DNA of 64,000 bases from Heterodontus francisci (Eukaryota): the NCBI RefSeq assembly GCF_036365525.1, contig NC_090380.1, forward strand, positions 87,243,658-87,307,657, read 5' to 3'. The translations under genes and the position numbers were made by a program. The notes beneath the pieces were generated by a model. It ran no database searches and was not told where the DNA came from. It was given only the letters and a program-made list of their open reading frames with translations. Of the stretch, positions 1 through 61,233 are shown piece by piece; the first letter of the stretch is position 1, and each line of letters opens with the position of its first letter.

Positions 1-479
1 CTGACAGACACTTGAGTTTGAATACCATGTTGGTGGTAGAGTTTCCCCTCTGGTAATTGCTTTTCTTCCTTCTCTCCAGTTTTCCTTCATAACTCTTCCG
101 TTCCTAAACACTGTAACTCATACTGCAATGAAGTTCCACAGATGCCAATGGTCCTCAGGTACCTCATACAATGTCGTCATTCTACTGAGTCTAGTCAGTG
201 ATTGTATAAACTATCATATATAATCTCAATCATATCCTCACCCAACATTCACACACAAGCAATTTCAATAGGAGTAGCTGGATAGCAATCAACATTGAGG
301 AGCCTTTTTGATTTTTAATCATCTCTAGATGAGGGATGCGTAGATCAAATATAATGGCCCTAGCTCCCCCTTAACTATTCTGGGTATTATTGATTAACTC
401 AATACAGATGCAATTTTTTAAAGGTTTTCTTTTATCATCCACTAATTTTTGCCAGTAGTTTTCCATCCTGAAAGATATG

Positions 480-790
480 GTTCTATGGCCACTGGTTGTC
501 CACGTTAATATTCAAGTAACATTCTTGCCAGGATGTTTACTGGGGAAGGGGTTGGGGGGGCGGTGTGGAGGAAACCACAGTCTGCATAATCTTATTCTCA
601 GTGCCAGCAAGAGTTGCTGGATAGCAAAACCCTGAAGTAACAGGGCCAATTGCAATGTTCCTAACACAGCCCTGGCTGAAATCAGCTAACTCACACTAAT
701 CAGAGATCAAGCCTGGAACATTCCTAGTATTCATGCCTCAGTTACTCACTGAATAACTTGCTAACCCACCAGGGAGCTAAACATATAACT
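480..790 (-). repeat. Ancient degraded SINE-like repeat, family unassigned
   Basis: The motif cagctaactca(g)cac...gatcaa(a/g)cctgg at about 682-720 recurs in degenerate form at about 2830-2870, 11885-11920, 18450-18480 and 18830-18880. Confidence 0.45.
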
Positions 791-973
791 TTTATTACTT
801 TGTTATAGTTTTCCTCACAATTATAGTTTATAATCAATCAATGCACTGGGGTGGGGAGATGTGCACAATAGTCAAATTTACATCTTTTGATATATTAATG
901 CATCACAAAAATCAGTGCAGTAATAAAGATATTTCTTCTAGCCAAATCAGTACTTAAAATATTTGAAGGATCT

Positions 974-2296: not shown

Positions 2297-3029
2297 AATT
2301 ATACTCAAAATAAAATAATTCTGAAATCTGAATAATCTCCAACAATGTTCTAATAAATCCAAGGATGATGTTTGATCCTGTAATTAGATAAAAAGTATTA
2401 GAAGAATAATGAAAGATTTTTCCAAATTAAATGTTACCAAGTTCTTGCTGAATCTGTTTGAGCTGAAACGCAGAGTTCCCAATTTTCTCAAAACCATAGA
2501 TGTACAAAACGACTGAGCACAGGAATCATTTCTTCCAAGCACACTTTTTCACCCTTCCCAATTTTCTCCATTCCTCTCTTGGAGAGACCAACTTATGCTA
2601 GAATAATGGGCACAGGATGGTAACTCATTGAAATCAGATAGTAAATGTTGACAGGCTATTCGAGCTCCAGAACCACTGAGTCTGACCCTGTTTTCACCCA
2701 ACGTCCACCCACCTGAACTTGCCAATGGGAGTCAATGGATTGCAGTTAGCTACAAGAACCCTTCGTTGATTTCCTTTTCTCCCCCGCCTACGGACATTGA
2801 ATCCAATTGTATAACTGCTGCCCATAAGCGGACTCAACACAGACTGAACAATGAACTGGATTCTGGAGGTTGTAATATGTAGGAAAGAATAGCGCGGAGA
2901 ATTTTGCGTATTCTTGTCAATTAATATTGCTGTGAAATGCTCTCCATAGATTTGCCTCGTTACACAGGCACTTCAATTTTAAAAATACAAAATAAAAAAT
3001 GGAGATCGTATATTAGGAATAAATAGAAT

Positions 3030-3718
3030 CGCGCTAACCTGTTAAAGAGATGAATGAAGTCCGGTGTTGCAAATTCGAATCTGGAACGTGCAACACAGAA
3101 CCCTGCCCGGATCTCATTCAGAGAAACTGCAGCTGCCTTCACATGGGGGAAAGGTCAACGCGGCGTGTGTCCGCCGCTTTCCAGACTCCCTGCTTTCCAC
3201 ATTCCAAATGAACAATGCACACATCAAACCATTGCAGTTTTTTTTTTAAATTGAGCACAGTTGCTCAATTGTAGTAGCTAGTTACCTACAGAATCATTTT
3301 CATGAACAACAGATATCATGAAACACAGGGCAAAGTTATCGTTTGAGTAATCTAATACTGCATGTGCCCGATTCATTTTAATTCAGATCTTTCAATTTGC
3401 AATCCTTGTTCAATCGCAAATATCTGGCAGTGTCTAATACATTATGTGCATGCTGTGTATTTTGTGATGCTGTTTATTAAACGAATATAAGTTCGTTTAG
3501 TATGGTAAACTTTGAGGAATCATTTGATCACGTTGTTAATTAAAATGTAACATTTTCTTTCATTAAAAATTAGCTTGAAGCGTGTTTCTGGGGAATTATT
3601 TCGAAGTAGTCCTAGGAGCAGAAGAATTACATCCGGTTCGTCGTTGTCCTTTCCCCGCCTATGTGAATTTTAGTTTAACTCTTTATTTCAATTAGCCTTT
3701 TCTCTTCAAGTTGAGAGA
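3030..3718. promoter_or_regulatory. Bidirectional promoter region shared by trmt10c (minus) and txnl4b (plus), including a probable non-coding trmt10c exon 1
   Basis: The genes are head-to-head. CpG-enriched patches lie at about 3030-3190 and 3600-3660. A minus-strand donor CAG/GTTAG at 3038 could splice to the acceptor at 2378. Confidence 0.6.
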
Positions 3719-16680: not shown

Positions 16681-18069
16681 TTGCTCCTACCAATTTTCTT
16701 GCCTGAGGTGCTGAGTCATGTTTGGCTACAGTTTTGTAGACCAGAGCAGCCCTTAGTACTACATCCAAATGATCATTCTTCGCTTGTAAGCTTCATGACT
16801 ATTAGCAGACAATGACAACTTACATTTACGTTGTGCCGTTAGCATAGGAAAATGTCACAAGATGCTTCATCAGACTAAAATTAGGATGGGTGACTAGTAA
16901 CTTGGTCAGAGGTAGATTTTAAGAAGAAAAAGGTGGAGAGGTTTAGGGAGGGAATTCCAGAGCTTAGGGACTAGACAACTGATGGCATGTTTGCCAATGG
17001 TAGGCCTACTTCACTTTATTATTAGACTATTTTATTAATCTAGCAGGTCCATACAATTTCAAATCAATTTTTAAAATATTTTCTGTAGGAATTTTTAGCT
17101 ATGCCGGTATTATAACAACTTTGAAATAGCTTCAGTGATTCTGGCAGAGATTTTTTGCTACCAGTGTTGGGAAAAGTGGAGAATCTGCAATCATCAGGAA
17201 GTCTTACAAATCAAAGACCCACCTTTTGAAATAGATTTGCTTTGTCTCAACTGCCAATGAATTGTTTAGATTGGATTCCGAGAAGGTGCACTTGTGCCTT
17301 TAAAATCTATTGATTGTTTAATTGTGAAAGTACTTTAAAAAAAAAAAATCTTCCTTTGTACCGATTCAAATGTCAAAGGAGAAGGAGGCATATAACCTAA
17401 TAGCCTTTGTTTCTGTGTTTTCCAACTTTGCCATTTCTCCATATGGGTCGAGAGCGAGCAGTGCACTCTCTATTGCTTCCATCTTACCAAAACCTTATGA
17501 CCACATGTTCCAATAGCTAAAATTTTAGAACTTTTTAAAATCTTGCTCTGTCTGATTAAAGTTTTTTTTTGCCTCTGTTTAATCTAACATGAATGGCCAT
17601 GTGTTTTTTTCCCCTTCAGTCAGAAAGGAGGACTATGCTAGTATCCTATGCTATTCCCGATCCAAGCACTATTGGCAAGGGGGTTTATTGTTCATCTGGA
17701 GGCCTACCATCTTAAATTCTTTATGCACAACCACTTCTGTTCAGGAGAAAGCATGTGCTGACCTATGAAAGCTGCCTTTGTGTTGTGCACAAAATAAAAT
17801 GTGTCAGAGGGAAGATGTGTTCATCTGATGTCCACCACCCTGAATTGCTCTATAGTTTTCAGGTGTGTGGTTTTCCTGTTTAATCTAGTAGCAGTGAGGA
17901 TAATTTAAGCATTACTCATTCTGCTCCTTCTAAGGTCAGGTATCTTTGTACTGATCAGGAACTGAAGCTAGAACCATCGGTATCATTCAGTTCCATTCTG
18001 CATTTGTTGACTGAACTAACTGAAACCTTAGGAATTTCTGACAAGGCAGGCTTTTATTTGTCCATTTTC

Positions 18070-18350
18070 TATCCCCAGTTTTGCTTGAGATGGTGCAGGT
18101 GATCCTTCTTGAATCGCTGCAGCCAGTGTGGGGAAGGTGCTTCCACAACGCTGTTATGTAGTATGCATCAGAATTTTGACCCAGTAACAATGAAGGTACA
18201 ACAATATATGTCCAGGTCAGGGTGGTACCTGACTTGGGGCTGACAGTATTCCAATGTATCTGCTGCCATGGTAGTGGAGATCGCAGGCTTGGGAGGTGCT
18301 GCCGAAGAAGCCTTCGTGAGTTGTTGCCTCCTAAAGATAGTATGTACTGC
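18070..18350 (-). mobile_element. Degraded 3' fragment of the tRNA-headed LINE family (see 27345-30570)
   Basis: Colinear by eye with 27410-27715 (ccttcttgaa.cgctgcag, aattttgaccc, gtcagg.tggt, tgg.aggtgctg). Confidence 0.6.
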
Positions 18351-19943: not shown

Positions 19944-21002
19944 CTACATCCTCTTCTTTTCCTTTAAGCAATTTTTCTTACTTAAACTTCTTGTAACAAT
20001 TGGCGATCGAGTGAATCGATTAGTTTTCTGCACATTTGCAACTTTCTTCAAGTACTTGAAAATTGAGTGAAAGCAAATTGTGGGGGCCAAGTCGTGGTTT
20101 TCAGTGCCTGCAGAAACCTGCGCACAGTCCATCCTTACGGAGGATACAGGCTTGTCTAGAGGTTTGGGGCTCAGTAACCAGTTACGGCATTTTTTTTCAA
20201 TCCAATTCCGACCTATTTGCCCAACGTTTTGATGGTCTGCATCATGAGCAGAGTTTATGAAGGCCACAGCATATACTTTGCTCATTACCTCCGTACGTTC
20301 ATTCAGTAGGTTGACAAATGTCAACCCGCCATAGCCATGAGCTATGAAGGCTACATTCATTGCAGTAGACTTCGATATAAAGTGGTCCCAAATGTAGATG
20401 ACGTGCTGTTCAGCACTTTCAAAACCTCTTTTTGGTATTTGTTTAAGTGTTAGGTTATATTTTTGATCAGAATCACATTGTTTTTTCTCTTCTGCGGCTG
20501 CGACATCGTCTTGCTTAATAGGCATAAAGTTGTCATTACTGTTTAATACAATCACTTCATAGTGCTCCCTTAGAGCTTTCTTAATAAAAGGGATTTGAGT
20601 GCCAGTATCCAGACAATCATGCACAATCAGTTGCTGGGACCATGTACCGGCCCGCATGACTCCACGATCTTGCAGTAGAACAATTAACTTGCAAGGATTA
20701 GTCAAGGCACCTTCGCTCATGAAGCAGAAACTTTTCGGGCCATCCTCTGCGGCCTCCAGGGGAATATAGACTCGTTTCAGTAGACATTCTTTCTCCAAGA
20801 GTTCGTATACATACTCGGCCAGAACTGTTCCAAAGACTTTGTACCATTGGTGGTTCAAGTTGGTTGCATTACTATATTGTTTGAAAACAAATGGTTGGTT
20901 TGTTTCCGTGTTCCTCAGTTGTCCTTTGTCATTGAAATAGTATTTGAATTCTTTCAGTCTTTTTGCATTTTCCAGTTGTTTAGGAATCACCGGCTCTCCC
21001 AT
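19944..21002 (-). CDS. FAM172B: FAM172/ARB2-family protein (Arb2-like alpha/beta-hydrolase fold), intronless, about 352 aa; probable FAM172B ortholog
   Basis: Motifs YYFNDKGQLR, YVYELLEK, GVMRAGTWSQQLIV..CLDTGTQIPFIK, HVIYIWDHF, AHGYGG and VSAGTENH match FAM172A as recalled. First ATG at 21002 (the track start is TTG). The position beside TRMT10C matches human FAM172BP. Confidence 0.85.
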   Translation of the reverse strand: MGEPVIPKQLENAKRLKEFKYYFNDKGQLRNTETNQPFVFKQYSNATNLNHQWYKVFGTVLAEYVYELLEKECLLKRVYIPLEAAEDGPKSFCFMSEGALTNPCKLIVLLQDRGVMRAGTWSQQLIVHDCLDTGTQIPFIKKALREHYEVIVLNSNDNFMPIKQDDVAAAEEKKQCDSDQKYNLTLKQIPKRGFESAEQHVIYIWDHFISKSTAMNVAFIAHGYGGLTFVNLLNERTEVMSKVYAVAFINSAHDADHQNVGQIGRNWIEKKCRNWLLSPKPLDKPVSSVRMDCAQVSAGTENHDLAPTICFHSIFKYLKKVANVQKTNRFTRSPIVTRSLSKKNCLKEKKRM

Positions 21003-21091
21003 TTTGAGAAAACGATACTCCAAATTAGCTCTTAAGTCAGTAGATAGCCTAAACTAATTATATTGTGCTGTTAATTTGCGATACGACTGTG

Positions 21092-27344: not shown

Positions 27345-30300
27345 TCTTTTATTTTCATTCATGGGATGTGGGCGACGCTGGCCAGGCCAGCATTTAATGC
27401 CCATCCCTAATTGCCCTCGAGAAGGTGGTGGTGAGTTGCCTTCTTGAACTGCTGCAGTCCATTTGGGGTAGGTATACCCACAGTGCTGTTAGAAAGGTAG
27501 TTCCAGGATTTTGACCCGGCGACAGTGAAGGAATGGTGATATAGTTCCAAGTCAGGATGGTGTGTGACTTGGAGGGGAACTTGCAGGTGGTGGTGTTCTC
27601 ATGTATTTGTTGCCCTTGTCCTTCTAGTTGGTAGAGGTCGCGGGTTTGGAAGGTGCTGTCTAAGGAGCCTTGGTGCATTGCTGCAGTGCATCTTGTAGAT
27701 GGTACACACTGCTGCCACTGTGCGTCGGTGGTGGAGGGAGTGAATGTTTGTAGATTGGGTGCAAATCAAGCGGGCTGCTTTGTCCTGGATGGTGTCGAGC
27801 TTCTTGAGTGCTGTTGGAGCTGCACCCATCCAGGCAAGTGGAGAGTATTCCATCACGCTCCTGACTTGTGCCTTGTAGATGGTGGGCAGGCTTTGGGGAG
27901 TCAGGAGGTGAGTTACTCGCCTCAGGATTCCTAGCCTCTGACCTGCTCTTGTAGCCACAGTATTTATATGGCTACTCCAGTTCAGTTTCTGGTCAATGGT
28001 AACCCCTAGGATGTTGATAGTGGGGGATTCAGCGATGGTAATGCTGTTGAATGTCAAGGGGAGATGGTTAGATTCTCTCTTGTTGGAGATGGTCATTGCC
28101 TGGCACTTGTGTGGCGCAAATGTTACTTGCCACTTATCAGCCCAAGCCTGGATATTGTCCAGGTCTTGCTGCATTTCTACACGGACTGCCTCAGTATCTG
28201 AGGAGTCACGGTGCTGAACATTGTGCAATCATCCGCGAACATCCCCATTTCTGACCTTATGATTGAAGGAAGGTCATTGATGAAGCCGCTGAAGATGGTT
28301 GGGCCTAGAACACTACCCTGAGGAACTTCTGCAGTGATGTTCTGGAGCTCAGGTGATTGACCTCCAACAACCACAACCATCTTCCTTTGCGCTAGGTATG
28401 ACTCCAGCCAGCGGAGGGTTTTCCCCCTGATTCCCATTGACCTCAGTTTTGCTCGGGCTCCTTGATGCCATACTCGGTCAAATGCTGCCTTGATGTCAAG
28501 GGCAGTCACTCTCACCTCACCTCTTGAGTTCAGCTGTTTTGTCCATGTTTGAACCAAGGCTGTAATGAAGTCAGGAGCTGAGTGGCCCTGGCGGAACCCA
28601 AACTGAGCGTCACTGAGCTGGTTATTGCTAAGCAAGTGCTGCTTGATGGCATTGTTGATGACACCTTCCATCACTTTACTGATGATTGAGAGTAGGCTGA
28701 TGGGGCGGTAATTGGCCGGGTTGGAATTGTCCTGCTTTTTGTGTACAGGATATACCTGGACAATTTTCCACATTGCAGGGTAGATGCCAGTGTTGTAGCT
28801 GTACTGGAACAGCTTGGCTAGGGGCGCGGCAAGTTCTGGAGCACAGGTCTTCAGTACTATTGCCGGAATATTGTCAGGGCCTATAGCTTTTGCAGTGTCC
28901 AGTGCCTTCATTCGTTTCTTAATATCACGCGGAGTGAATCGAATTGGCTGAAGTCTGGCATCTGTGATGCTGGGGACTTCAGGAGGAGGCTGAGATGGAT
29001 CATCAACTTGGCACTTCTGGCTGAAGATTGTGGCCAATGCTTCAGTCTTATCTTTCGCACTGATGTGCTGGGCTCCCCCATCATTGAGGATGGGGATATT
29101 TGTGGAGCCACCTCCTCCAGTTAGTTGTTTAATTGTCCACCACCATTCACGGCTGGATGTGGCAGGACTGCAGAGCTTAGATCTGATCCGTTGGTTATGG
29201 GATCGCTTAGCTCTGTCTATTGCATGCTGCTTATGCAGTTTGGCACGCAGATAGTCCTGTGTTGTAGCTTCACCATGTTGACACCTCATTTTGAGGTATG
29301 CCTGGTGCTGCTTCTGGCATGCCCTCCTGCACTCTTCATTGAACCAGGGTTGGTCTCCTGGCTTGATGGTAATGGTAGAGTGGGGGATATGCTGGGCCAT
29401 GAGGTTACAGATTGTGGTTGAGTACAATTCTGCTGCTGCTGATGGCTCACAGCGCCTCATGGATGCCTAGTTTTGCATTGCTAGATCTGTTCAAAATCTA
29501 TCCCATTTAGCACGGTGATAGTGCCACACAACCCGAAGGAGGGTATCCTCAATGTAAAGGCGGGACTTCGTCTCCACAAGGACTGTGCGGTGGTCACTCC
29601 TACCAATACAGTCATGGTCAGAAGCATCTGCAGCAGGCAGATTGGTGAGGATGAGGTCAAGTATGTTTTTCCCTTGTGTTGGTTCCTCCACCACCTGCCG
29701 CAGACCCAGTCTAGCAGCTCTGTCCTATAGGACTCGGCCAGCTCGGTCAGTAGTGGTGCTACCGAGCCACTCTTGGTGATGGACATTGAAGTCCCCCACC
29801 CAGAGTACATTTTGTGCCTTTGCCACCCTCGGTGCTTCCTCCAAGTGGTGTTCAACATGGAGGAGTACTGACTCATCAGCTGAGGGAGGGCAGTAAGTGG
29901 TAATCAGTAGGAGGTTACCTTGCCCATATTTGACCTGATTTCATGAGACTTCATGGGGTCCGGAGTCGATTGTTGAGGACTCCCAGGGCAACTCCCTCCC
30001 TACTGTATACTGCTGGGTCTGTCCTGCTGGTGGGACAGGACATACCCAGGGATAGTGATTGCAGTGTCTGGGACATTGTCTGTAAGGTATGATTCCGTGA
30101 GTATGATTGTCAGGTTGTTGCTTGACTAGTCTGTGGGACAAGCCCCCAGATGTTAGTAAGGAGGACTTTGCAGGGTCGACAGGGCTGGGTTTGCCGTTGT
30201 CGTTTCCGGTGCGTAGATCGATGCCGGGTGGTCTGTCCGGTTTCATTCCTTTTTATTAACTTTGTAGCGGTTAGGTACAACTGAGTGGCTTGCTAGGCCA

Positions 30301-30570
30301 TTTCAGAGGGCATTTAAGAGTCAACCACATTGCTGTGGGTCTGGAGTCACATGTAGGCCAGACCAGGTAAGGACAGCAGATTTCCTTCCCTCGAGGACAT
30401 TAGTGAACCAGATGGGTTTTTACAACAATCGACAATGGTTTCATGGCCATCATTAGACTAGCTTTTAATTCCAGATTTATTAATTAAATTCAAATTCCAC
30501 CTTCTGCTGTGGTGGGATTCAAACCCATGTCCCCAGAGAAATACCCTGGGTCTCTGGGTTACTAGTCCAA
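27345..30570 (-). mobile_element. Near full-length single-ORF APE-RT LINE (CR1/L2 supergroup, clade unassigned) with a tRNA-derived 5' head
   Basis: APE remnants (KVLLTNIWGL, QQPD, NILDLILTN, SDHRTV) and RT motifs ([34 protein letters not shown]) across ORFs 29941-30246, 29491-29694, 28177-29460 and 27599-28228. B-box-like GGTTTGAATCC on minus at 30515-30525. Confidence 0.9.
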
Positions 30571-30753
30571 TCCCTTTGGGCCTGCTCCGCCATTCAAAAA
30601 GGATCATGGCTGATTGTCTAATTCAGTACCCTGTTCCTGCTTTCTCCCCATATCCCTTAATCCCTTTGGCATTGAAAAAAAATCTATCTCCTTTTGAATA
30701 TATTTAATGACTTGATCTCCATTGCCTTCTGCGGTAGAGAATTCCACAGATTA

Positions 30754-31100
30754 GGGCGGCGCAGTGGTTAGCACTGCAGCCTCACAACTCCAGCGACCCG
30801 GGTTCGATTCTGGGTACTGCCTGTGCGGAGTTTGCAAGTTCTCCCTGTGACTGCGTGGGTTTTTGCCGGGTGCTCCGGTTTCCTCCCACAGCCAAAGACT
30901 TGCAGGTTGATGAGTAAATTGGCCATTATAAATTGCCCCGAGTATAGGTAGGTGGTAGGGGAATGTCGGGACAAGTGGGGATGTGGTCGGAATATGGGAT
31001 TAGTGTAGGATTAGTATAAATGGGTGGTTGATGGTCGGCACAGACTCGGTGGGCCGAAGGCCCTGTTTCCGTGCTGTATCTCTAAATAAATAAAATAAAT
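30754..31100 (+). mobile_element. HE1-like V-SINE, full length
   Basis: A-box ggcgcagtgg, B-box ggttcgattc, V domain and CR1-like tail (taaa)n. Same family as 14232-14570. Confidence 0.9.
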
Positions 31101-31796
31101 ATTCACCACCCTCCTGAGTGAAGAAATTTCTCCTCCTCTCAGTTCTAAATGGCATACCCTGTATCCTGAGACTGTGAGCCCTGGTTCTGGACTCTCCATC
31201 CTCCCTGCATCTAGTCTGTCTCGTCCTGTTAGAATTTTATAGGTTTCTGTGAGATCCCCTCTCATTTTTCTAAACGCTAGTGAATATAGGCCTAGTCGAC
31301 CCAATCTCTCCTCGTACGTCAAGCCTGCCATCCCAGGAATCAGCCTAGTAAATCTTCTTTGCTCTCGCTCCATGGCAAGAACATCCTTCCTCAGATAAGG
31401 AGACCAAAACTGCACACAATACTCCAAATGTGGTCTCACCAAGGCCCTATACAACTGCAGTCAGACATCCTTGTTCATGTTGATGAGCTATTCACCTGTA
31501 AGGGCTATCATAATTGAGCTGGTCTTGTCCTTAATTGTAGAAGATGGACAGAAAAGTTTTGAGTTGAAATCCTCAAAACTCCTTGTTCCTTTCAAGTTCT
31601 GTAAAGCCCATGGATTTGAATATTGCAACCTTGTTTATCTCGAGTGGTGATAAATTCCAAATTGATTCACTCTATAGTCCTATTTGGACCAGAATTTCTG
31701 AGGATGTCCTCCAAAGCCACTCTAGTAACCTGTTCTTCATCTGCAGCATTGCACAAATGTCAGACAGTCGGTCATCTGTAAGACCAAAACAATAAC

Positions 31797-34700
31797 TAAT
31801 ATTACTTGTTCTTTTGGTATGTGGACTATTGTAAGAGTCACAGGTACACAAAGCTACTGCAGGAGCCAAACCAACACACACCTCACTCTGTCAGGCTACA
31901 CCCACAACTCCCTGGTCGTGTGTGATGCAACATCGCTTCCTCCAGCGACCTTCACTTACACACAACAACCCCCATTTTTCCAAAGATAAAAACATATGTA
32001 TAATAAAACATTATTTACAAATAAGCAAGTTTAACACTCTCTAAAACGTAGAGGAGGATTGCTTATTTGTCCCAATCTTGTTGTTTTAAACCTCTTCCCA
32101 GAGCTGAGTTTGTCTTTTCGATTTCTTTGACTGTGGCGACTTGGAACTCTGGTTAGCATGTTCTTCCTCTGTGCTCATAGCCTCTGTATGTTCATCTTCA
32201 GGCTTTGTCTTTGAACGTGTCCATGATGCCACAGGGTGGTCACATGTTGTGTTGTACAGCTTTCTGAGCTGACTTCGGTTCCGTCTGAGATTCGCACCAT
32301 TGAGTGTCTGGACCTCGTACAATCTGGGTTGGTCGCATATCCTAGAAACCTCTGCAGGATACCAAGTTCCCAACCTTCTGTCCCACTTGCAATTGAACTA
32401 CTTTTGGTCCTGTTTGCCTGTCATACAATGCCTTCATCTTCCCTTGCTCAGAAAGCTCAGAGAAATGATGACTGGCAACATCACCGGCAGTCCCTCTGGC
32501 CTCCATGTACTTACTGCAACGGACTGAAGCCCAAGGAGAGACTACTGGTCATGTCGTCTCTTCGTTTCAAGATGCCCAGCATTTGTATCCTTTACATGGA
32601 CTGACCCAATATACTTGATCTGGATATTTTCTACTATATTTGATGCATTACTGACGACTTGTGGGGAGGTGGTGGCATAGTGGTAATGTTGCTATATGAG
32701 TAATCCAGAGGTCCAGGCTAATGTCCTGGGGACACTGGTTCAAATCCCACCATGGCAGCTGGTGGAATTTAATTTCAGTTAAATAATTCAATTAATTAAT
32801 CTGGAATTGAAAGCTGTTCTTAGTTTCATGGTGCCATTACTATCATTGATTGTCGTAAAAACCCATTTGGTTTACTAATGACCCTTGGGGAAGGAAATCT
32901 GCCATCCTTAACTATGCTGGTTTACATGTTACTCCAGACCCACATCAATGTGGTTGACTCTGAACAGCCCTCGGGTGTCAAGGGCAATTAGGCAACAAAT
33001 GCTGGCCTTGCCAGCGCCACCCACATCGCGTGAAAGAATAAAAAAAAATTGTGACGATTCGTAAATCTTGGCATACTGGAAGTCTTATGACAGCTGGTCC
33101 AGTTGTGTCTACAATATAAAACATTCATGGTATTCATCTGGAGCTCCCATAGCTGCACTGCAAGGATATCATTCCAATGCACTTGATTGGAGAACCATTG
33201 ATGGCAGTCAGCCTAAATGTGGTGGGGTCATACCATAGATTCCCATTTCCTTAAGTACATGTCCTTCAGTATGTGGATGGGCAGAATATTTGCACTTGTT
33301 CTGGTGGTTTGAGCTTATGCTTTCCACTCTTTTGCAGATATATAGTCATGATCGTGGCAAATGCCTCAGATTGCATAATAGCATTGACGTTGATCCAAAT
33401 TAACAATGTGAAATGCTTGCTTGCTCTTCGCATTAGTGCATTCTTCACCTGTGTTCTCCTGACAATCTGTCTCTTTGCTGACCTGATGTACCTGCTTGGG
33501 CTTTTGTTCTGTATTAGCATACCTTTTGTTGCATTTGCTATTCTGTCTTGCAGATGTTCTCTGCCAGCATTCCTGTGTGCAGTATCTGAGCTCAGCCTTC
33601 TGCACTGCCTTCCTAATGTCCTTGCATGCCACAAGCTTTGCACTGGCCCTGGTACGCCAGACAACTGCGAATTGGGTGAGTCAGGCCACATTTGCCAGCA
33701 GGCCTAGCAGACTTCTGACCCTTGGTTACCATACCAATTGTTGTAGCCACCTCCAACACTTGTAACTGTTGGCACCCAGCCATGATGGCTTCAGATTTCC
33801 TTCCATCACTGAGTAGTGCATCTATGATATGCCCTTTCTCCTTTTCTAGCAGGTCTTTTTGAAAGGCCTCTATTGGAGTAGATGCGATTACTGGCTCTAT
33901 TACCCGCCCCAGCAATTCATTATCTGCAAAGTCGCATTCTTGAGCTTTGTCTCGGCACCTTCCAACAAACTGGTCAATGGACTCATCTTGCCTTTGCCAG
34001 TAGGTCATCAGCTCAAGCCTCAGCAATTGACCATCACCTTGAGTTGCTGCTTCAGGAATGTCCATAGCTTGCTTGGGTCAGCTGACAATCCTGATGTGTT
34101 GATCTGTTCTAGGCCCTTGTTGCCCAGTCCGATATTGATTTTTGATAGCTTATTTATTTGGTTCGCTCACTTCTTGATCTAGGAAACACTTCCATCTGTT
34201 GTTGAAACAATTTAAATTGAGATGCTGTGGATTCTTGAATACCATATTCTGGATGATCCTGCTGTTATATAAATATGGGGCTTTTTACAGTTACAGCTTT
34301 GTTTCCTTTTTTTTCTGGCCTGCCCCTTTTAAGAGTGAGCCTACAGCTGCCTTTGTTTACACTGCTTGTTATTTTTTAAACTGAGGGAGCAGTTCTTTGT
34401 TTAAAAGCTTTTTTTTTTAAAACTGAGAACAGGTTATTTTAAGAGGTCTGCAGCTTGTAGTACCAGCAGCTGCCACGGTCAGCCTTTTACTTTGCTAGAC
34501 CTCTAGTGGTGCTGTTGAGCACTTCCCTCTCTTTTCAGCTTAGGCCCTGCCCACTAAGCAAAAAAACTAGGAAAACTAAAGCAGTAATGGCTGTACTACT
34601 GCTTTACAAATTGTTCGACCCACTGCTAGATTAGGTGAAAGCTCCAATCTCCTGGAAAGTTTCCTACTGTACTCAACACCTCTTGGTCCTGTCTGTGGTC

Positions 34701-41776: not shown

Positions 41777-44700
41777 TTAGAATTAGAACATTACAGCGCA
41801 GTACAGGCCCTTCGGCCCTCGATGTTGCGCCGACCTGTGAAACCATCTGACCTACACTATTCCATTTTCATCCATATGTCTATCCAATGACCACTTAAAT
41901 GCCCTTAAAGTTGGCGAGTCTACTACTGCTGCAGGCAGGGCGTTCCACGCCCCTACTACTCTGCGTAAAGAAACTACCTCTGACATCTGTCCTATATCTT
42001 TCACCCCTCAACTTAAAGCTATGTCCCCTCGTGTTTGCCATCCTCATCCGAGGAAAAAGACTCTCACTATCCACCCTATCTAACCCTCTGATTATCTTGT
42101 ATGTCTCTATTAAGTCACCTCTCTTCCTCCTTCTCTCTAACGAAAACAACCCCAAGTCCCTCAGCCTTTCCTCGTAAGACCTTCCTTCCATACCAGGCAA
42201 CATCCTAGTAAATCTCCTCTGCACCCTTTCCAAAGCTTCCACATCCTTCCTATAATGCGGTGACCAGAACTGCACGCAATACTCAAGGTGCGGCCTCACC
42301 AGAGTTTTGTACAGCTGCATCATGACCTCGTGGCTCCGAAACTCGATCCCCCTACTAATAAAAGCTAACACACCATATGCCTTCTTAACAGCCCTATTTA
42401 CCTGGGTAGCAACTTTCAGGGATTTATGCACCTGGACACCAAGATCTCTCTGCTCATCTACACTACCAAGAATCTTCCCATTAGCCCAGTACTCTGCATT
42501 GCTGTTACTCCTTCCAAAGTGAATCACCTCACACTTCTCCGCATTAAACTCCATTTGCCATCTCTCAGCCCAGCTCTGCAGCCTATCTATGTCCCTCTGT
42601 ACCCTACAACATCCTTCGGCACTATCCACAACTCCACTGACCTTAGTGTCATCCGCAAATTTACTAACCCACCCTTCTACACCCTCTTCCAGGTCATTTA
42701 TAAAAATGACAAACAGCAGTGGCCCCAAAACAGATCCTTGCGGTACACCACTAGTAACTAAACTCCAGGATGAACATTTGCCATCAACCACCACCCTCTG
42801 TCTTCTTTCAGCTAGCCAATTTCTGATCCAAAGCTCTAAATCACCTTCAACCCCATACTTCCGTATTTTCTGCAATAGCCTACCGTGGGGAACCTTATCA
42901 AACGCCTTACTGAAATCCATATACACCACATCCACTGCTTTACCCTCATCCACCTGTTTGGTCACCTTCTCGAAAAACTCAATAAGGTTTGTGAGGCACG
43001 ACCTACCCGTCACAAAACCGTGCTGACTATCGCTAATGAACTTATTCTTTTCAAGATGATTATAAATCCTGTCTCTTATAACCTTTTCCAACATTTTACC
43101 CACAACCGAAGTAAGGCTCACAGGTCTATAATTACCAGGGCTGTCTCTACTCCCCTTCTTGAACAAGGGGACAACATTTGCTATCCTCCAGTCTTCCGGC
43201 ACTATTCCTGTCGACAATGACGACATAAAGATCAAGGACAAAGGCTCTCCCTTTAGATCCTTCCTGGCTAGCTTGTAACTCTCAAGCGCCCTAACTGAAC
43301 CTTCACGTCTTATCCTAACTTCTTCCTCTTGACAAGCGCTTCAACTTCTTTGGTAAACCACGGCTCCCTCGCTCGACAACTTCCTCCCTGCCTGACAGGT
43401 ACATACTTATCAAGGACACGCAGTAGCTGCTCCTTGAATAAGCTCCACATTTCGATTGTTCCCATCCCCTGCAGTTTCCTTCCCCATCCTACGCATCCTA
43501 AATCTTGCCTAATCGCATCATAATTTTCTTTCCCCCAGCTATAATTCTTGCCCTGCGGTATATACCTGTCCCTGCCCATCGCTAAGGTAAACCTAACCGA
43601 ATTGTGATCACTATCACCAAAGTGCTCACCTACATCTAAATCTAACACCTGGCCGGGTTCATTACCCAGTACCAAATCCAGTGTGGCATCGCCCCTGGTT
43701 GGCCTGTCTACATACTGTCAGAAAACCCTCCTGCACACACTGGACAAAAACTGACCCATCTAAAGTACTCGAACTATAGTATTTCCAGTCAATATTTGGA
43801 AAGTTAAAGTCCCCCATAACAACTACCCTGTTACTCTCGCCCCTGTCGAGAATCATCTTCGCTATCCTTTCCTCTACATCTCTGGAACTATTCGGAGGTC
43901 TATAAAAGACTCCCAACAGGGTGACCTCAGCTCTCCTGTTTCTAACCTCGGCCCATACTACCTCAGTAGACGAGTCCTCAAACGTCCTTTCTGTCGCTGT
44001 AATACTCTCCTTGATTAACAATGCCACACCACCCCCCCCTCTTTTACCATCTTCTCTGTTCTTACTGAAACATCTAAATCCCGGAACCCGCAACATCCAT
44101 TCCTGTCCCTGCTCTACCCATGTCTCCGAAATGGCCACTACATCGAGATCCCAGGTACCAACCCATGCTGCAAGCTCACCCACCTTATTCCGGATGCTCC
44201 TGGCGTTGAAGTAGACACACTTTAAACCAGGTTCTTGCTTGCCAGTGCCCTCTTGTGTCCTTGTAACCTTATCCCTGACCTCACTACTCTCAACATCCTG
44301 TACACTGGAACTACAATTTAGGTTCCCATTCCCCTGCTGAATTAGTTTAAACCCCCCCCCCCCCCCCCCCCGAAGAGCACTAGCAAATCTCACCCCCCCA
44401 GGATATTGGTACCCCTCTGGTTCAGGTGAAGACCATCCTGTTTGTAGAGGTCCCACCTACCCCAGAAAGAGCCCCAATTATCCAGGAAACCAAAACCCTC
44501 CCTCCTGCACCATCCCTGCAGCCACGTGTTCAACTCCTCTCTCTCCCTATTCCTCGCTTCGCTATCGCGTGGCACGGGCAACAACCCAGAGGTAACAACT
44601 CTCTTTGTTCTCGCTCTAAGCTTCCACCCTAGCTCCCTGAATTTCTGTCTTAAATCCCCATCTCTCTTCCTACCTATGTCGTTGGTGCCTATGTGGACCA

Positions 44701-45600
44701 CGACTTGGGGCTGCTCCCCCTCCCCCCTAAGGATCCCAGAAACACGATCCGAGACATCACGAACCCTGGCACCTGGGAGGCAACACACCTCGTTCCCACA
44801 GAACCTCCTATCTGTTCCCCTAACTATGGAGTCCCCAATGACTAATGCTCGGCTCCTCTTCCCCCTTCCCTTCTGAGCAACAGGGACAGACTCTGTGCCA
44901 GATACCTGTACCCCATTGCTTACCCCTGGTAAGTCGTCCCCCGCAACAGTATCCAAAACGGTATACCTGTTGGTGAGGGAAACTGCCACAGGGGATCCCT
45001 GCACTGCCTGCTGGTTCCCCCTCCTTCCCCTGACGGTAACCCATCTACCTACTTCTTTTACCTGAGGTGTGACTACCTCCCCATAACTCCTCTCAATAAC
45101 CCCCTCTGCCTCCCGAATGATCCGAAGTTCCTCCAGCTCCAGTTCCCTAACGCGGTTCTCGAGGAGCTGGAGTTGGGTGCACTTCCCGCAGATGCAGTCA
45201 GCAGGGACACTCTTGGCGACCCTTACCTCCCACATTCTGCAGGAGGAACATACAACTGCCTTAACTTCCATTCCCACTATTCTAAATTCCCAACAAATCT
45301 ACTGAAAAACCAAAAAAAAAAAGTCAAAACTTGTTAGGTTAGCAATCCAACGGACAGAACTTTTTAAATAAAAAGCTTACCTTATCAACACACCAGAGTC
45401 CTTTTTTTTGGTTAGAGGAGGAGGGTGGGTGGGAGACACTACATGTGTAGTGTCTCGGGTACAGCCACCACCCAAGTATATAGTTTTTACTTACCCAGCA
45501 GTCCCCTGGTCCTCCGAAAACAAAAGGGAATTAACTTTTAACTTACACTGAAATTGACTTCCCAGCTGCAAGTTCGCTCCGCACCTCCGCTACTGTCAAA
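41777..45600 (-). mobile_element. Near full-length young CR1 LINE: ORF1 (Zn finger, coiled coil, SGNH esterase) and ORF2 (APE-RT) with frameshifts and an internal deletion near 43250
   Basis: ORF1 44390-45277 (CSSC..CICGKC, GDS, VHIGTND, DGLHLN). APE at 43310-44456 (YFNARSI, ISETW, YRPP, GDFN, SDHN). RT at 41895-43241. (ttctaa)n tail. Confidence 0.95.
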
Positions 45601-48900: not shown

Positions 48901-51697
48901 CGTCACTCTTGGCTGACATACGTTGTCCAGGCCTCGCTGCCGTAGAGCAAGGTACTGAGGACACCGGCTTGATAAGCTCGGACTTTTGTGTTCTGTGTCA
49001 CTGCGCCCTTTTCCCATACCCTCTTGGCCAGTCTGAACAGAGCAGTGGAAGCCTTTCCCATGTGCTTGTATATTTCTGCATCGAGAGAGAGGTTACTGGT
49101 GATAGTTGAGCCTAGGTAGGTGAACTCTTGAACCACTTCCAGAGTGTGGTCGCCGATATAGATGGATGGAGCATTTCTGATGTCCTGTCCCATGATCGTT
49201 TTCTTGATGCTGATGGTTAGGCCAAATTCGTAGCAGGCAGCTGCAATCCTGTCGATGAGTCTCTGCAGACGCTCTTCAGTGTAAGATGTTAATGCAGCAT
49301 CGTCCGCAAAGAGGAGTTCCCTGATGAGGACTTTCCGTCCTTTGGCCTTTGCTCTTGTATGCCTTTCATATTGTCATGGAATGAGGTGATGATACTTAGT
49401 AGCTTTGGTGGACATCCGATCTTTGCTAGTAGTCTGAAGAGACCACGTCTGCTGACGAGGTCAAAGGCTTTGGTGAGATCAATGAAAGCAACGTAGAGGG
49501 GCATCTGTTGTTCACGGCATTTCTCCTGTAGTTGGTGAAGGAAGAACAGCATGTCAGTGGTGGATCTCTCTGCTCGAAAGTAACACAGTGCCTCAGGGTA
49601 GACACGCTCAGCTAGCTTCTGGAGCCTGTTCAAAGCGACTTGAGCGAAGACTTTCCCCACTATGCTGAGCAGGGAAATTCCACGGTAGTTAAGGATAACG
49701 TAAAGACAAAAACTAAGGCATGCCATATTGCAAACGCCAGTGGCAGGCTGGAAGATTGGGAAACTTTTTTAAAGATCAACAAAGGGTTACTAAAAAAAGT
49801 AATAAAAAGAGAAGAGGTAAATTATGAAAGAAAACTAGCGCAAAATATAAAAACGGAAAGCAAAAGCTTCTGTAGTTATATAAAAGGGAAGAGAGTAGCT
49901 AAAGTGAATGTTGCTCCCTTGGAGGATGAGACTGGGGAGTTAATAGAGGGGAACACAGAAATGGCGGAGACACTAAATCAGTGTTTTGCCTCAGTTTTCA
50001 CAGTGGAAGACATTAGTACCATCCCAATAGTAACAGGTAATGCAGACGTTATAGAAAGGGAGGAACTTGGAACAATCATCATCACTAGAGGAAAAAGTGC
50101 TGATCAAACAATTGGGATTGAAGGCCGACAAGTCCCCAGGGCCTGATGGCCTACATCCTAGGGTCTCAAAGGAAGTGGCAGCGGAGATAGTGGATCCATT
50201 GGTTATAATATTCCAAAATTCCCTAGATGCTGGGAAGGTTGCAGTGGATTGGAAAAAAGCTAATATAATGCCCTTATTCAAAAAGGGAGGCAGAAAGTAG
50301 GAAACTGTAGACCAGTTAGTTTAACATCTGTAGTTGGGAAATTGTTAGAATCCATTATTAAGGAAGTAATAACAGGACATTTAGAAAGTCAAAATGCAAT
50401 CCATCAGAGTCAGCATGGTTTTATGAAGGGTAAATTGTGTTTGACTAATTTGCTAGAGCTCTTCGAAGATGTAACAAGTAAAGTAGATAATGGGGATCCT
50501 GTAGATATAGTATATCTGGTCTTCCAGAAGACATTTGATAAGGTGCCGCATAAAAGGTTAATACACAAAGTAAGGTCACATGGGGTTAAGGGCAATTTAT
50601 TAGCTTGGATAGAGGATTGGCTAACCAACAGAAAAGAGAGAGTTGGGATAAATGGGTCAATTTCTGGTTGGCAAGATGTAACTAATGGGGTGCCACAGGG
50701 TTCGGTCCTCAGGGGCCCAACTATTTACAGTCTATATTAATGACTTGGATGCAGGGATAGAAGGTACTATAGCCAAATTTGCAGATGACACTAAAATAGG
50801 TGGGATAGTAAGTTGCAGTAAAGAAATAAGAAATTTACAAATGGATATGGATACGTTAGGTGAATGGGCCAAAATTTGGCAGATGGAGTTCAACGTGGAT
50901 AAGTGAGGTTATCCATTTTGGTCGGAAGAATAGAAAGGCAATTATTATCTAAATGGAGAGAAACTTCAGAGTGCTTCGTTTCAGAGGGATCTGGGTGTCC
51001 TCGTGCTTGAATCGCAGTAAACCAGTATGCAGGTGCAGCAGGTAATAAGGAACGTAAATGGAATTTTGTCAATTATTGCTAAAGGAATAGAGTATAAAGG
51101 TAGGGAAGTGTTGCAACTTTACAAGGCATTGGTGAGACCGCACCTGGACTATCGCGTACGGTTTTGGTCCCCTTACCTGAGGAGGGATGTAGTTGCATTG
51201 GAGGCAGTTTAGAGGAGGTTCATTAGATTAATTCAAGAGATGAGGGGTTTGTCTTGTGAAGAGAGTTTGAGCAGTTTAGGCCTTTACTCTCTCTCGAGTT
51301 TATAAGAATGAGAGTAGATCTAATTGAGGTACATAAGATGATTAAGGGGACTGACAAAGTAGACGTAGAGAGGATGTTTCCTCTGGTGGGGCAATCTAGA
51401 ACGGGAGGTCATAGTTTTAGGATAAGGGGTAGCAGATTTAAAACAGCGATGAGGAGAAAGCACGTCTCTCAAAGGGTCATGAGCCTGTGGAATTCCCTAC
51501 CCCAGAGTGCAGTGGATGCCGGGACACAGTAAATTTAAGGAGGAGATAGACAGATTTTTAATTAGTGATGGGTTATGGAAAATGGGCAGGAAAGTGGAGT
51601 TGAGGCCGAGATGAGAACAGCCATGATCGTATTGAATGGCGGAGCAGCCTGGAGGGGCTGAACTGCCTACTCCTGCTCCTAGTTTTTATATTCTTAT
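45930..51697 (+). mobile_element. Full-length degraded CR1 LINE interrupted by an RTE insertion
   Basis: ORF1 remnants at 46340-47240 (Cys knuckle, VVIGDSIVRG, VHIGTNN, DELHLN). APE 47665-48168 and RT 50067-51532. 3' tail cctactcctgctcctagtttttatattcttatg. Confidence 0.92.
48320..49686 (-). mobile_element. RTE-clade (BovB-like) LINE, 5'-truncated and internally deleted
   Basis: NYRGISLLSIVGK, AFIDLTKAFDLVSR, FTYLGS, LLYGSEAW, RLRWLGHVSRM, C-terminal CSTCGRVCHSRIDLYSH finger and (GAA)n tail. Junction duplication agtt at 48316-48319 and 49687-49690. Central RT is missing at about 49355. Confidence 0.9.
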
Positions 51698-52794
51698 GTG
51701 TGTGAGAAGGAGCCAAGCTCAATCATTGCATTTGCACTCAGCTGCAAGGAATACAAGAACGTTGTAGAAGATCTTGGACGAGAATCTGTGATGAATGGGA
51801 GTGACGATGGAGTACAACAGCCAAATAATGCGGACAGACCAAAGACCAATAGCCTTGCAAGGCACTTGGAAAGCTGCAGCAGTCAAGGAAATCGCAGCAG
51901 TGATTCTGAACAAACATATGATGGTGATGGAGACAAACAGAAGAAACATCTTGGAAACCCACATGTGGAACTACAGTTTTCAGACGCCAATGCCAAGTTT
52001 TACTGTCGAATTTATTACGCTGAAGAATTCCACAAAATGAGGGAAGTGATCTTGGCAAACAATGAAGATGACTTCATCCGATCTCTATCTCACTGTGTGC
52101 CATGGCAAGCCCGAGGAGGCAAATCAGGAGCATCTTTTTATGCTACAGAAGATGACCGCTTTATTCTGATGCAGATGCCTCGTTTGGAAGTACAGTCATT
52201 CCTGGATTTTGCTCCTCATTATTTTAATTATATTACAACTGCCGTTCAGAAAAGACCGACAGCATTGGCAAAAATTCTGGGAGTATATCGAATAGGCTAC
52301 AAAAACTCTCAGAACAATACAGAGAAGAAACTTGATCTTTTGGTTATGGAGAATCTCTTTTATGGGAGAAAAATGGCGCAAGTTTTTGATTTGAAAGGTT
52401 CTTTAAGGAATCGAAATGTTCAAACTGAAACGGGAAAAGAGACATGTGATGTTGTATTACTGGATGGAAACCTATTGAAAATGATTCGCGATAACCCTCT
52501 TTACATTCAGTCACACTGCAAGGCTGTGCTGCGGGCATCCATTCATAGTGATGCATATTTTCTGTCAAGCCATCTCTTCATTGACTATTCCCTACTTGTG
52601 GGCCGAGATGACATTAAAAATGAATTGGTTGTTGGAATTATCGATTGATATCAGGACATTTACTTGGGATAAAAAACTTGAAATGGCTGTAAAGTCTACG
52701 GGAATCTTAGGTGGGCAAGGGAAAATGCCAACTGTGGTTCCCCCAGAACTTTTATAGAACGAGGTTTTGTGAAGCAATGGACAAGTACTTCCTG
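51698..52794 (+). pseudogene. PIKFYVE: Processed PIKFYVE fragment covering the C-terminal PIPK kinase domain
   Basis: Intronless CEKEPSSIIAFALS...ARGGKSGA...FDLKGSLRNR...IDYSLLVG...GIID/IRTFTWDKKLE...YRTRFCEAMDKYFL. Frameshifts at about 52647 and 52752. The catalytic Lys codon appears as ATG at 52169-52171. Confidence 0.92.
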
Positions 52795-58749: not shown

Positions 58750-59050
58750 CTTGAGAGGGCACTTAAGAATCAGCCACATTGCTGTGGGTTTGGAGTCACA
58801 TATAGGCCAGATCTGGTAAGGATGGCAGGTTTCCTTCCCTGAAGGACATTAGTGAACCAGATGGGTTTTTACAATAATCTATAGTTTCATTGCACCATTA
58901 CTGAGACTAGCTTTCAATTCCAGACTTTTATTAATTAATTGAATTTAAATTCCAGCAGCTTCCGTGGTGGCCTTTGAACCTGTGTCCCCAGGGCATTAGC
59001 ATGGACATTGAATTACTAGTCCAGTGATATTACCATTACGCTACTGTCTC
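58750..59050 (-). mobile_element. Second copy of the SINE/head of the tRNA-headed LINE family
   Basis: Colinear with 30305-30570 (ccacattgctgtggg..tggagtcac, ggacattagtgaaccagatgggtttttacaa, ttactagtcca). A-box-like tagcgtaatgg on minus. Confidence 0.85.
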
Positions 59051-60210: not shown

Positions 60211-61233
60211 CAGTAGCATAGTGGTAATGTTACTGGATTAGTAACTGGACTCGAAGCTGGGACTAATGCTCCGGAGAGACAAGTTCATATCCTACCATGG
60301 TAACTGGGGATCTTAAATTTAATTAATAAATCTGGAATAAACAGCTCGTCTCAGTAATGATTATGAAACTACCATGTTGTTGTAAAACACACTTGGTTCA
60401 CTAATCTCCTTCAGTGAAAGAATTCTGCTGTCCTAACCCGGTGTGGCTGTTGTCACTCTAGACCCGCAGCAACGTGGTTGACTCTTAACTGTCCTCTGAA
60501 ATTGCCTAGCATGCCACTCCAGTTATGTCAAACCGCTACACAAGTCAAATAAGAATAAAACCAGATGGACCACTAGGCACCAGAAATGACACAGGCACAC
60601 CTTTCCCAGTCGACCCTGCAACGTCCTCCTCACTAACATCTCTGGACTTGTGCCAAAATCTGTCCCACAGACTCGTCAAGCAACAGCCTGACATAGTCAT
60701 ACTCACGGAATCAAACCTACAGCCAATGTCCCAGACTCCTCCATCACCAGAGGTGGCGGCACAGTGATCTGCAGGTGAGAGGCAGTGGCCCAGGGAGTCC
60801 TCAATATTGACTCTGGACCCCATGAAGTTTTGTGGCATCAGGTCAAACATGGGCAAGGAATCCTTCTGATTACCACCTACTATCCTCCCTCAGCTGATCA
60901 GTCAGTGCTCCTCCATGATGAACACTAGTTAAAAGAAGCACTGAGGGTAGCAAGGACACAGAATGGAATCTGGGTGGCGACTTCAGTGTCCGTCACCGAG
61001 TGTCTTGGTAGCACCACTACTGACCGGGCTCCGAAGGACATATCTACTGGGCTGGGCCTGTGGCAGGTAGTGAGAGAACCAACAGGAAAAACCTACTTGA
61101 CCTCGTCCTTACCACCGACCTGTCGCAATGCATTTCTCCATGACAGTATTGGTAAGAGTGATCACTCCTTGTGGAAACAAAGTCTCGTCGTCTGATTGAG
61201 AACACCCTACATAGTGTAGTATGGCACTACACT
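60211..61233 (+). mobile_element. 5' part of a second tRNA-headed LINE copy (head plus APE domain)
   Basis: A-box TAGCATAGTGG (60214-60224) and B-box-like AGTTCATATCC (60282-60292), then the shared body, then LSHRLVKQQPDIVILTES and later APE remnants. Truncated by a CR1 at about 61235. Confidence 0.85.

What the first reader, a model, noticed from the sequence alone, without database searches (positions are those of the whole stretch)
27345..30570. Sense strand of the tRNA-headed LINE almost lacks TTTT Pol III terminators
Seen: scanning about 3.2 kb by eye, I found only one T4 run on the element's sense strand (plus-strand aaaa at 29493-29496). It sits in TTTTGA, plausibly CpG decay of TTTCGA, and creates a stop. 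The second copy has one T4 run in about 1 kb (near 60828), where the first copy has none. The same-strand CR1 at 41777-45600 has many T4 runs. Established: Pol III terminates at T4 or longer. Inference: selection for full-length Pol III transcription of a protein-coding retroelement. This raises the question of how an uncapped RNA is translated; I also found no in-frame ATG ahead of the APE motif in this copy.
Basis: partly seen in the sequence, partly recalled or inferred. Interest (0 to 1): 0.8.

Follow-up and report, generated by a model that had tools for sequence, protein, structure and literature searches.

The report
Shark LINE built for polymerase III
An abundant 3.3-kb protein-coding jumping gene in a shark-type genome starts with a tRNA-type promoter, has no T-run stop signal for RNA polymerase III anywhere on its coding strand and no start codon in its open frame ahead of the enzyme domains, so it is likely copied by the polymerase normally kept for short non-coding RNAs and would need an unusual way to be translated.

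Summary
Confirmed, and stronger at family level than in this copy. The window holds a decayed copy of a 3.3-kb LINE family (65,440 exact matches to a 3' marker). Four subfamily consensuses have zero TTTT; the youngest also has no TVTTT. The single T4 here is CpG decay. One copy alone is not significant (P=0.29), nor is T4 alone under the strictest null (P=0.08), but T-runs are avoided by context: at synonymous sites where T would make a run of three or more, T occurs 1 of 53 times, against 10 of 57 in a composition-matched RTE and 34 of 66 in CR1 of the same genome; 51 headless relatives show no such drop. Full-length copies begin sharply at an A/B-box head; the single APE-RT frame is under purifying selection (dN/dS 0.14-0.19) and lacks an ATG before APE, though an in-frame ATG-GCC-TAG abuts it. 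A SINE family equals its first 321 plus last 80 bases. It is not the SacSINE1/Deu-L2 pair. Pol III transcription and the translation route are inferred; RNA data were contigs only. The scan found this family before in other genomes; ten paper searches found no description.

The parts
27347..30569 (-). Decayed copy of the 3.3-kb tRNA-headed LINE; lacks family nt 1-30
   Evidence: 96% to subfamily consensus nt 31-3295; deletions of 20, 2, 17 and 4 nt and one 1-nt insertion
30495..30569 (-). Remainder of the tRNA-like head (A box lost in this copy)
   Evidence: relaxed ARAGORN folds the Y1 consensus head as tRNA-like; weak Rfam T-arm match, E 0.008, below gathering score
30514..30526 (-). B box, with one C-to-T decay against the family's GGTTCGAATCC
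30278..30494 (-). 5' body shared with the companion SINE, ending at the SINE junction (family nt 321)
30293..30301 (-). In-frame ATG-GCC-TAG directly ahead of the long frame, purine at -3 and G at +4
   Evidence: no variant at 25% share in runs of four coded organisms
27407..30292 (-). Single APE-RT frame, 975 codons in the consensus, broken in this copy; first Met lies inside or after APE
   Evidence: Pfam Exo_endo_phos and RVT_1 on unbroken copy L246
30152..30169 (-). First APE motif, about 42 codons into the frame
29493..29496 (-). The only T4 run of this copy, from CpG decay
28210..28740 (-). RT domain, part ahead of a frameshift
   Evidence: RVT_1, E 1e-30
27347..27420 (-). 3' tail of about 80 nt shared with the SINE; holds the stop codon; ends in GAAT repeats and a short A tail
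60213..61229 (+). Older copy, 5' third only, T4 at 60828
58751..59049 (-). Companion SINE copy (head and body, tail remnant)
32663..33048 (+). Companion SINE copy, second subfamily
18064..18327 (-). Old 3' fragment of the same LINE family

Best explanation
This is an autonomous single-frame APE-RT LINE whose RNA is likely made by RNA polymerase III from its own tRNA-type A/B-box head, and the same uncapped RNA would serve as both message and template. Shown: the head is the family's own 5' end; the sense strand has no T4 and avoids T3 by codon context; the frame is under purifying selection; no AUG lies in the open frame before APE; a SINE family consists of the two ends. Inferred: a T4 arising in a source copy would stop Pol III before the 3' tail that the RT needs, so such copies leave no offspring, which purges T4 and TVTTT and confines T3 to Phe codons; transcription would end at the first T4 in the 3' flank. 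Least certain: translation start. My preferred route is loading on the conserved body, then the ATG-GCC-TAG mini-frame followed by readthrough or AUG-independent restart; direct non-AUG entry between nt 306 and 430 is not excluded.
For: Zero T4 in 4 of 4 subfamily consensuses; Y1 has 0 T4, 0 TVTTT, 0 TTTVT against 17, 10, 15 on its antisense strand; TTTT and TVTTT are the shortest working terminators (PMC8466645, passages). T3 runs in the frame 4 against 12.8 under synonymous-codon permutation, 0 of 5000 as low; A, C, G runs normal. VTT before a T-starting codon 0 of 23 against 39 of 176 elsewhere; NNT before TTN 0 of 28. Third-position T at TTT-making sites 4 of 58 against 198 of 700, p=1.5e-4, ratio 0.24; RTE 0.94, CR1 1.23; 51 metagenome relatives lowest 0.73, median 1.13. 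Two close relatives with the same 21% T have ordinary counts (L047: T4 4, T3 12; L040: T4 2, T3 17). Phe is 18 of 975, 14 of them at columns where most homologues have Phe. 20 of 30 copies picked by protein alone reach nt 1-8, 10 are truncated, none shares another 5' end. A box intact in 29, B box in 28, both in 24 of 36 full-length young copies; the boxes fit the consensus in Old and Y1 while 20 of 92 aligned head positions differ. dN/dS 0.14-0.19 between subfamily consensuses. All 60 copies examined meet a T4 within 783 nt of their 3' end.
Against: No direct RNA evidence: all runs laid were contigs without strand, start or cap information. T4 alone is not significant under the null that keeps codon usage (0 against 2.1, P=0.08). 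The RTE control is also T4-poor (2 in 1.8 kb) and mildly low in TT (P=0.018) and 4-of-5 T windows (P=0.028); 1 of 73 scored metagenome frames (L040) had no T4 in its longest frame. The test for ongoing rather than inherited avoidance is weak: 1 against 4.4, 0 against 3.4, 1 against 1.1 expected, and not independent. The body folds no better than shuffles (z 0.18), so no entry-site structure is shown. The 42 codons before APE evolve near neutrally (dN/dS 0.83 against Old). The mini-frame lies in a stretch that is conserved anyway and one SINE subfamily keeps it. Published opinion is that LINEs use Pol II and that Pol III processivity limits length (PMC10886601, passages).
Confidence: 0.68

Rival explanations
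1. Split labour: Pol III makes the template RNA (hence the T-run purge), but the protein comes from separate capped Pol II transcripts, for example host read-through spliced into the frame or started upstream.
For: No AUG in the open frame; no folding support for an entry site; N-terminal 42 codons near neutral; the element is abundant in RNA-like runs, as expected from read-through.
Against: dN/dS of 0.14-0.19 along successive source lineages is simplest if each source RNA is copied by its own protein; no shared upstream sequence among 30 protein-picked copies.
Confidence: 0.14
2. A Pol II LINE that captured a SINE head; the boxes are vestigial or dual-use and T-run avoidance serves something else (cryptic splicing, U-tract binding proteins, innate sensing) or is left over from an earlier Pol III phase.
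For: Known LINEs use Pol II (passages); the ongoing-selection test is weak; the RTE shows a mild TT drop too.
Against: The extra drop starts at run length three (1 of 53) while the drop at two is shared with RTE and CR1; TA is not avoided at synonymous sites (0.25 against 0.23), which speaks against UU/UA-cutting nucleases; C-rich tracts are not avoided. Boxes are kept while the sequence between them drifts. CR1, RTE and L2 of the same genome keep T4 runs (9, 2 and 7).
Confidence: 0.15
3. Composition artefact: a T-poor strand (20% T) has few T4 runs by chance.
For: Single copy P=0.29 against dinucleotide shuffles; T4-only P=0.08.
Against: Context tests keep protein and codon usage fixed and still give p of 1e-4 or below; controls of equal T content are normal.
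Confidence: 0.03

Closest known systems
Single-frame CR1-group LINEs of the Zenon type and their internally deleted SIDE Persaeus (PMC6740152, passages)
   Same: One APE-RT frame; a short partner made of the LINE's 5' and 3' ends. The RT groups (support 0.995) with compact invertebrate elements including a lepidopteran and an amphioxus protein. The name Zenon for this clade is recalled; no named reference was in the tree.
   Different: Persaeus has no tRNA head or Pol III promoter; full-length homologous proteins are annotated with a Met ahead of APE; the relatives with DNA are rich in T4.
tRNA-headed SINE2 elements built on bipartite LINE ends (Kojima 2018, PMC5786205, passages)
   Same: tRNA head, LINE-linked body, LINE tail. 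[quoted passage not shown]
   Different: There only RTE and Vingi give SINE bodies and the LINE lacks the head; here the coding element itself carries head and body. RTE-1_DAn is named in 1 paper of the library, without analysis of Pol III use in the passage seen.
SacSINE1/DeuSINEs and their L2-2_CM or CR1-4_DR partner (PMC5499810, PMC3747384, PMC7245038)
   Same: Shark tRNA-headed SINE sharing a tail with a LINE.
   Different: True Deu SINEs are a separate family in this genome (375 exact motif matches) with a tail like the genome's L2 family and no significant match to this element. By recall only, the short partner resembles AmnSINE2; not testable here.
R2 elements and R2 SIDEs (PMC3414825, passages)
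   Same: Coding retroelement RNA not made from a Pol II promoter; a conserved stop codon ahead of the frame, proposed there to matter for internal initiation and lost in the short derivatives (one of two SINE subfamilies here has lost the TAG).
   Different: R2 is cut from the rRNA co-transcript by an HDV-like ribozyme, has a restriction-like endonuclease and a fixed target; this element has APE, its own A/B boxes and dispersed sites.

Membership tests
Autonomous APE-type LINE | APE and RT domains in an open frame | tested here: met
   Pfam on unbroken copy L246
Autonomous APE-type LINE | Fixed 3' end with simple-repeat/A tail and variable 5' truncation | tested here: met
   10,067 head-to-frame junction matches against 65,440 3' marker matches
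Autonomous APE-type LINE | Frame under purifying selection across source lineages | tested here: met
   dN/dS 0.14-0.19
Autonomous APE-type LINE | Pol II transcript, capped, AUG-initiated | not testable with these tools
   no AUG in the open frame before APE; runs were contigs
tRNA-derived SINE (SINE2) | A and B boxes at a sharp 5' end | tested here: met
tRNA-derived SINE (SINE2) | Short (100-700 bp) and non-coding | tested here: not met
   3.3 kb with a 975-codon frame; met only by the companion SINE
tRNA-derived SINE (SINE2) | No internal Pol III terminator | tested here: met
tRNA-derived SINE (SINE2) | Transcribed by Pol III | not testable with these tools
   inferred only
DeuSINE (SacSINE1) / L2 partner | Deu domain in the body | tested here: inconclusive
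   no blastn or nhmmer match to this genome's Deu SINEs; local score 43.5 against 32.9 +/- 5.8 in shuffles, P=0.054
DeuSINE (SacSINE1) / L2 partner | Shared 3' tail | tested here: not met
   Deu SINE tail resembles the genome's L2 family, not this element
CR1-Zenon group | RT phylogeny with named Zenon elements | tested here: inconclusive
   tree has no named reference; clade includes a lepidopteran protein
CR1-Zenon group | Single frame, no ORF1 | tested here: met
   only 305 nt precede the frame
SIDE (for the companion SINE) | Made of the LINE's 5' and 3' ends | tested here: met
   nt 1-321 at 92% to Old, last 80 nt at 89-94%
SIDE (for the companion SINE) | No Pol III promoter | tested here: not met
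   A and B boxes present
R2-like uncapped translation | Structured internal entry site or ribozyme | tested here: inconclusive
   no excess folding energy; pseudoknots not searched

The most novel reading that the evidence does not exclude
A natural 3.3-kb messenger RNA made by RNA polymerase III in vertebrates: an autonomous, protein-coding SINE-LINE that has recoded a 975-codon frame to be terminator-free, is translated without a cap or an in-frame AUG through a conserved SINE body acting as a ribosome entry element, and spawns its SINE by simple internal deletion. It would give a function and an origin to a conserved SINE body.
Probability: 0.5. Interest if true: 0.92.

Novelty: new variant of a known kind. 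Interest (0 to 1): 0.8.

Why it matters
The working rule is that LINEs use Pol II and code, SINEs use Pol III and do not, and that Pol III cannot make long RNAs. A successful coding element on a tRNA promoter would break that division, supply a natural test case for long Pol III transcripts and for cap-free, AUG-free translation in a vertebrate, and make the open question of what conserved SINE bodies do directly testable. The T-run test used here is also a simple screen for other such elements. A self-contained 3.3-kb retrotransposon with a short internal promoter is of interest as a compact insertion tool.

Tried and rejected
My first label for the body, Deu domain / SacSINE1, was recall and failed when tested; early notes carrying it were corrected. 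T-runs at the 3' end of some copies were considered as a built-in terminator: the youngest copies end in one T and A9-10, and T-runs replace As without a significant trend with age (rho -0.18, p=0.23), so I read them as decay after insertion; not settled. An out-of-frame ATG at family nt 352 is present in Y1, Y2 and Mid but is ATA in Old and has no good frameshift site by eye: rejected as the general start. The 42-nt in-frame deletion in the Old and Mid consensuses is an artefact of picking copies with a query that has it. ARAGORN at default settings found nothing in the window. Viral contigs gave nothing; a 15-nt motif scan of prokaryote genomes gave 120 hits that I took as chance and did not use. 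None of 80 metagenome loci matched head or tail. RNA-like runs could not show strand or start. One tree run was killed and repeated with FastTree. Nishihara 2006 and Gunnery and Mathews 1995 were not held. Supplements of PMC5499810 and file 1 of PMC4824008 could not be read and may hold L2-2_CM or SINE alignments that bear on naming. Repbase and Dfam were not searchable; the family may be catalogued there.

Full report
Observation. The stretch 27345-30570 has one T4 on the minus strand, at 29496-29493, and 11 runs of three or more; the CR1 at 41777-45600 has 18 T4. On its own this is not beyond chance (P=0.083 by base shuffle, 0.29 by dinucleotide shuffle), and an RTE fragment in the window is as T4-poor (1 in 1151 nt). 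The question therefore had to be put to the family.

The family. The window lies in a 6.0-Gb genome; a DNA search gave 29,864 candidates, 40 scored, 30 fetched at 92-94% identity. Proteins 76-85% alike come from whale shark and sevengill shark, so the host is shark-type. Exact 17-mers count 65,440 LINE 3' ends, 10,067 head-to-frame junctions (control 73) and 3,633 SINE junctions. Ninety loci from three searches (two were duplicates) fall into young and old groups; 73 of them went into four consensuses. Full-length copies are 3.3 kb, start within about 2 nt of one another, differ in their upstream flanks, and end in GAAT repeats plus A9-10, mostly without a clear target duplication. Of 30 copies picked by a distant protein, with no reference to the head, 20 reach nt 1-8 and 10 are truncated; none shares another 5' end. 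The window copy lacks nt 1-30 and has a decayed B box.

Head. A box at nt 11-21 and B box at nt 75-85 match the tRNA promoter consensus (established knowledge); both are intact in 24 of 36 full-length young copies. Relaxed ARAGORN folds the Y1 head as tRNA-like but not the Old head; Rfam gives a weak T-arm match.

Frame. One frame of 975 codons, APE then RT, no ORF1; copy L246 is full-length with an unbroken 972-codon frame. The first Met is at about codon 204 or 285 in the young consensuses, past the start of APE at codon 42-47. dN/dS between subfamily consensuses is 0.14-0.19 from APE onward and 0.83 (Old) or 0.45 (Mid) for the first 42 codons. An in-frame ATG-GCC-TAG abuts the frame in all four consensuses. 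Homologues often have a basic extension of 15-60 residues before APE, as here, but with a Met.

T-run test. All four consensuses have zero T4. In the frame, T3 runs number 4, all Phe codons, against 12.8 when synonymous codons are permuted (0 of 5000 as low); A, C, G runs are normal; T4 is 0 against 2.1 (P=0.08) or 3.9 under a third-position model (P=0.012). TVTTT plus TTTVT is 0 against 4.3 (P about 0.005); the paper passages read give TTTT and TVTTT as the shortest working terminators and TTT as minor (PMC8466645). No TTT is formed across a codon boundary: 0 of 23 and 0 of 28 chances. By run length, with TpG sites set aside, T at synonymous sites is 0.24, 0.15 and 0.02 (1 of 53) for runs of one, two and three or more; RTE 0.22, 0.12, 0.18; CR1 0.47, 0.33, 0.52. 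So the TT drop is shared and the drop at three is specific. Copies gain T4 after insertion: 22 in 184,798 nt of 58 copies, 39 with none, against 6-8 per kb in the window at large; by eye the repeated sites do not group sister copies.

Controls. Same genome: RTE T3 14 against 16.1, T4 2 against 3.2; CR1 T3 35 against 33.7, T4 9 against 9.3; L2 7 T4 in 700 nt. Metagenomes: 80 related loci, 73 with a frame to score; one (L040) had no T4 in its longest frame; in the 51 frames of 1500 nt or more the avoidance ratio was never below 0.73, against 0.24 here. Most are richer in T, but two at 21% T are ordinary. Against my reading: RTE is mildly low in TT and T-rich windows, and the test for ongoing selection is weak.

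Companion SINE. Of 30 loci fetched with the window SINE at 58.7-59.0 kb, most run from the body straight into the LINE's last 80 nt; the consensus is LINE nt 1-321 (92% to Old) plus tail. A second subfamily (14 of 20 loci aligned, 6 near-duplicates left out) has lost the TAG. Both junctions occur in runs of four coded organisms. Direction is not shown: deletion from a headed LINE, or recombination of a SINE head onto a LINE through the shared body. The T-run purge says the coding element has depended on the head for a long time either way (inference).

Identity. I first took the body for the Deu domain from memory. The Deu alignment in the supplement of PMC7245038 looked different, and Deu SINEs fetched from this genome form a separate family with an L2-like tail and no significant match (P=0.054 for one local alignment). 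The RT sits in a clade of compact, mostly invertebrate elements at 38-48% identity, apart from shark CR1 (54 sequences); Zenon is my recalled name for it.

Literature. Ten full-text searches found no description of a Pol III-driven coding LINE or of this element. Seen as passages: PMC4824008, PMC5786205, PMC10886601, PMC4255032, PMC3747384, PMC7245038, PMC8466645, PMC3414825, PMC3894237, PMC6740152; PMC5499810 as part 2 of 6 plus passages. [quoted passage not shown] Recalled, not read: AUG-independent restart of L1 ORF2, and translation of engineered Pol III RNAs. Repbase and Dfam were not available. The scan's own notes show this family flagged in other genomes; they are not independent support.

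Verdict. Shown: head, sharp start, terminator-free and context-purged sense strand, selected frame without AUG, end-joined SINE. Inferred: Pol III transcription (about 0.8 for the template RNA), translation of that same RNA (0.68 overall), and the start mechanism (open). Interest 0.8; a new variant of a known kind that would be a new route of gene expression if the bench tests hold.

Noticed in passing
window 974-2383 (-): Intronless 469-codon frame with a tRNA m1G methyltransferase domain, TRMT10-like by recall.
   Followed up: partly
window 19944-21053 (-): Intronless 369-codon frame with an Arb2 domain, FAM172-like by recall; gene or retrocopy not decided.
   Followed up: partly
window 51683-52648 (+): Intronless PIP5K-domain frame, probably a processed pseudogene.
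   Followed up: partly
window 32086-34077 (-): Decayed frames that look like LTR-retrotransposon gag/pol by eye, no Pfam hit in 2 frames; a companion SINE copy sits inside at 32663-33048.
   Followed up: partly
G000:C8, about 114-124 Mb (L376-L378, L383-L386): At least ten matches of near-equal length and score to the SINE query cluster on one contig arm, suggesting a multiplied segment.
   Followed up: no
protein P0009 (Branchiostoma lanceolatum Hypp5830): In-clade relative with only 1.5% Phe and an annotated start inside APE: a lead for a second terminator-free lineage.
   Followed up: no
family nt 351-400, window about 30250-30200: 1 difference in 50 nt between Old and Y1 next to 13 in the 50 nt before it, then a small hairpin kept in both: possible RNA element near the translation start.
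   Followed up: partly
L127, L133 and joints: Further head-plus-tail derivatives with other junctions (for example nt 320 joined to 2931), so internal deletion has happened more than once.
   Followed up: partly
window 30570-31500 (-): The copy's truncated 5' end abuts the 3' part of an older CR1 that carries another SINE (HE1-like by recall) at about 30760-31100.
   Followed up: no
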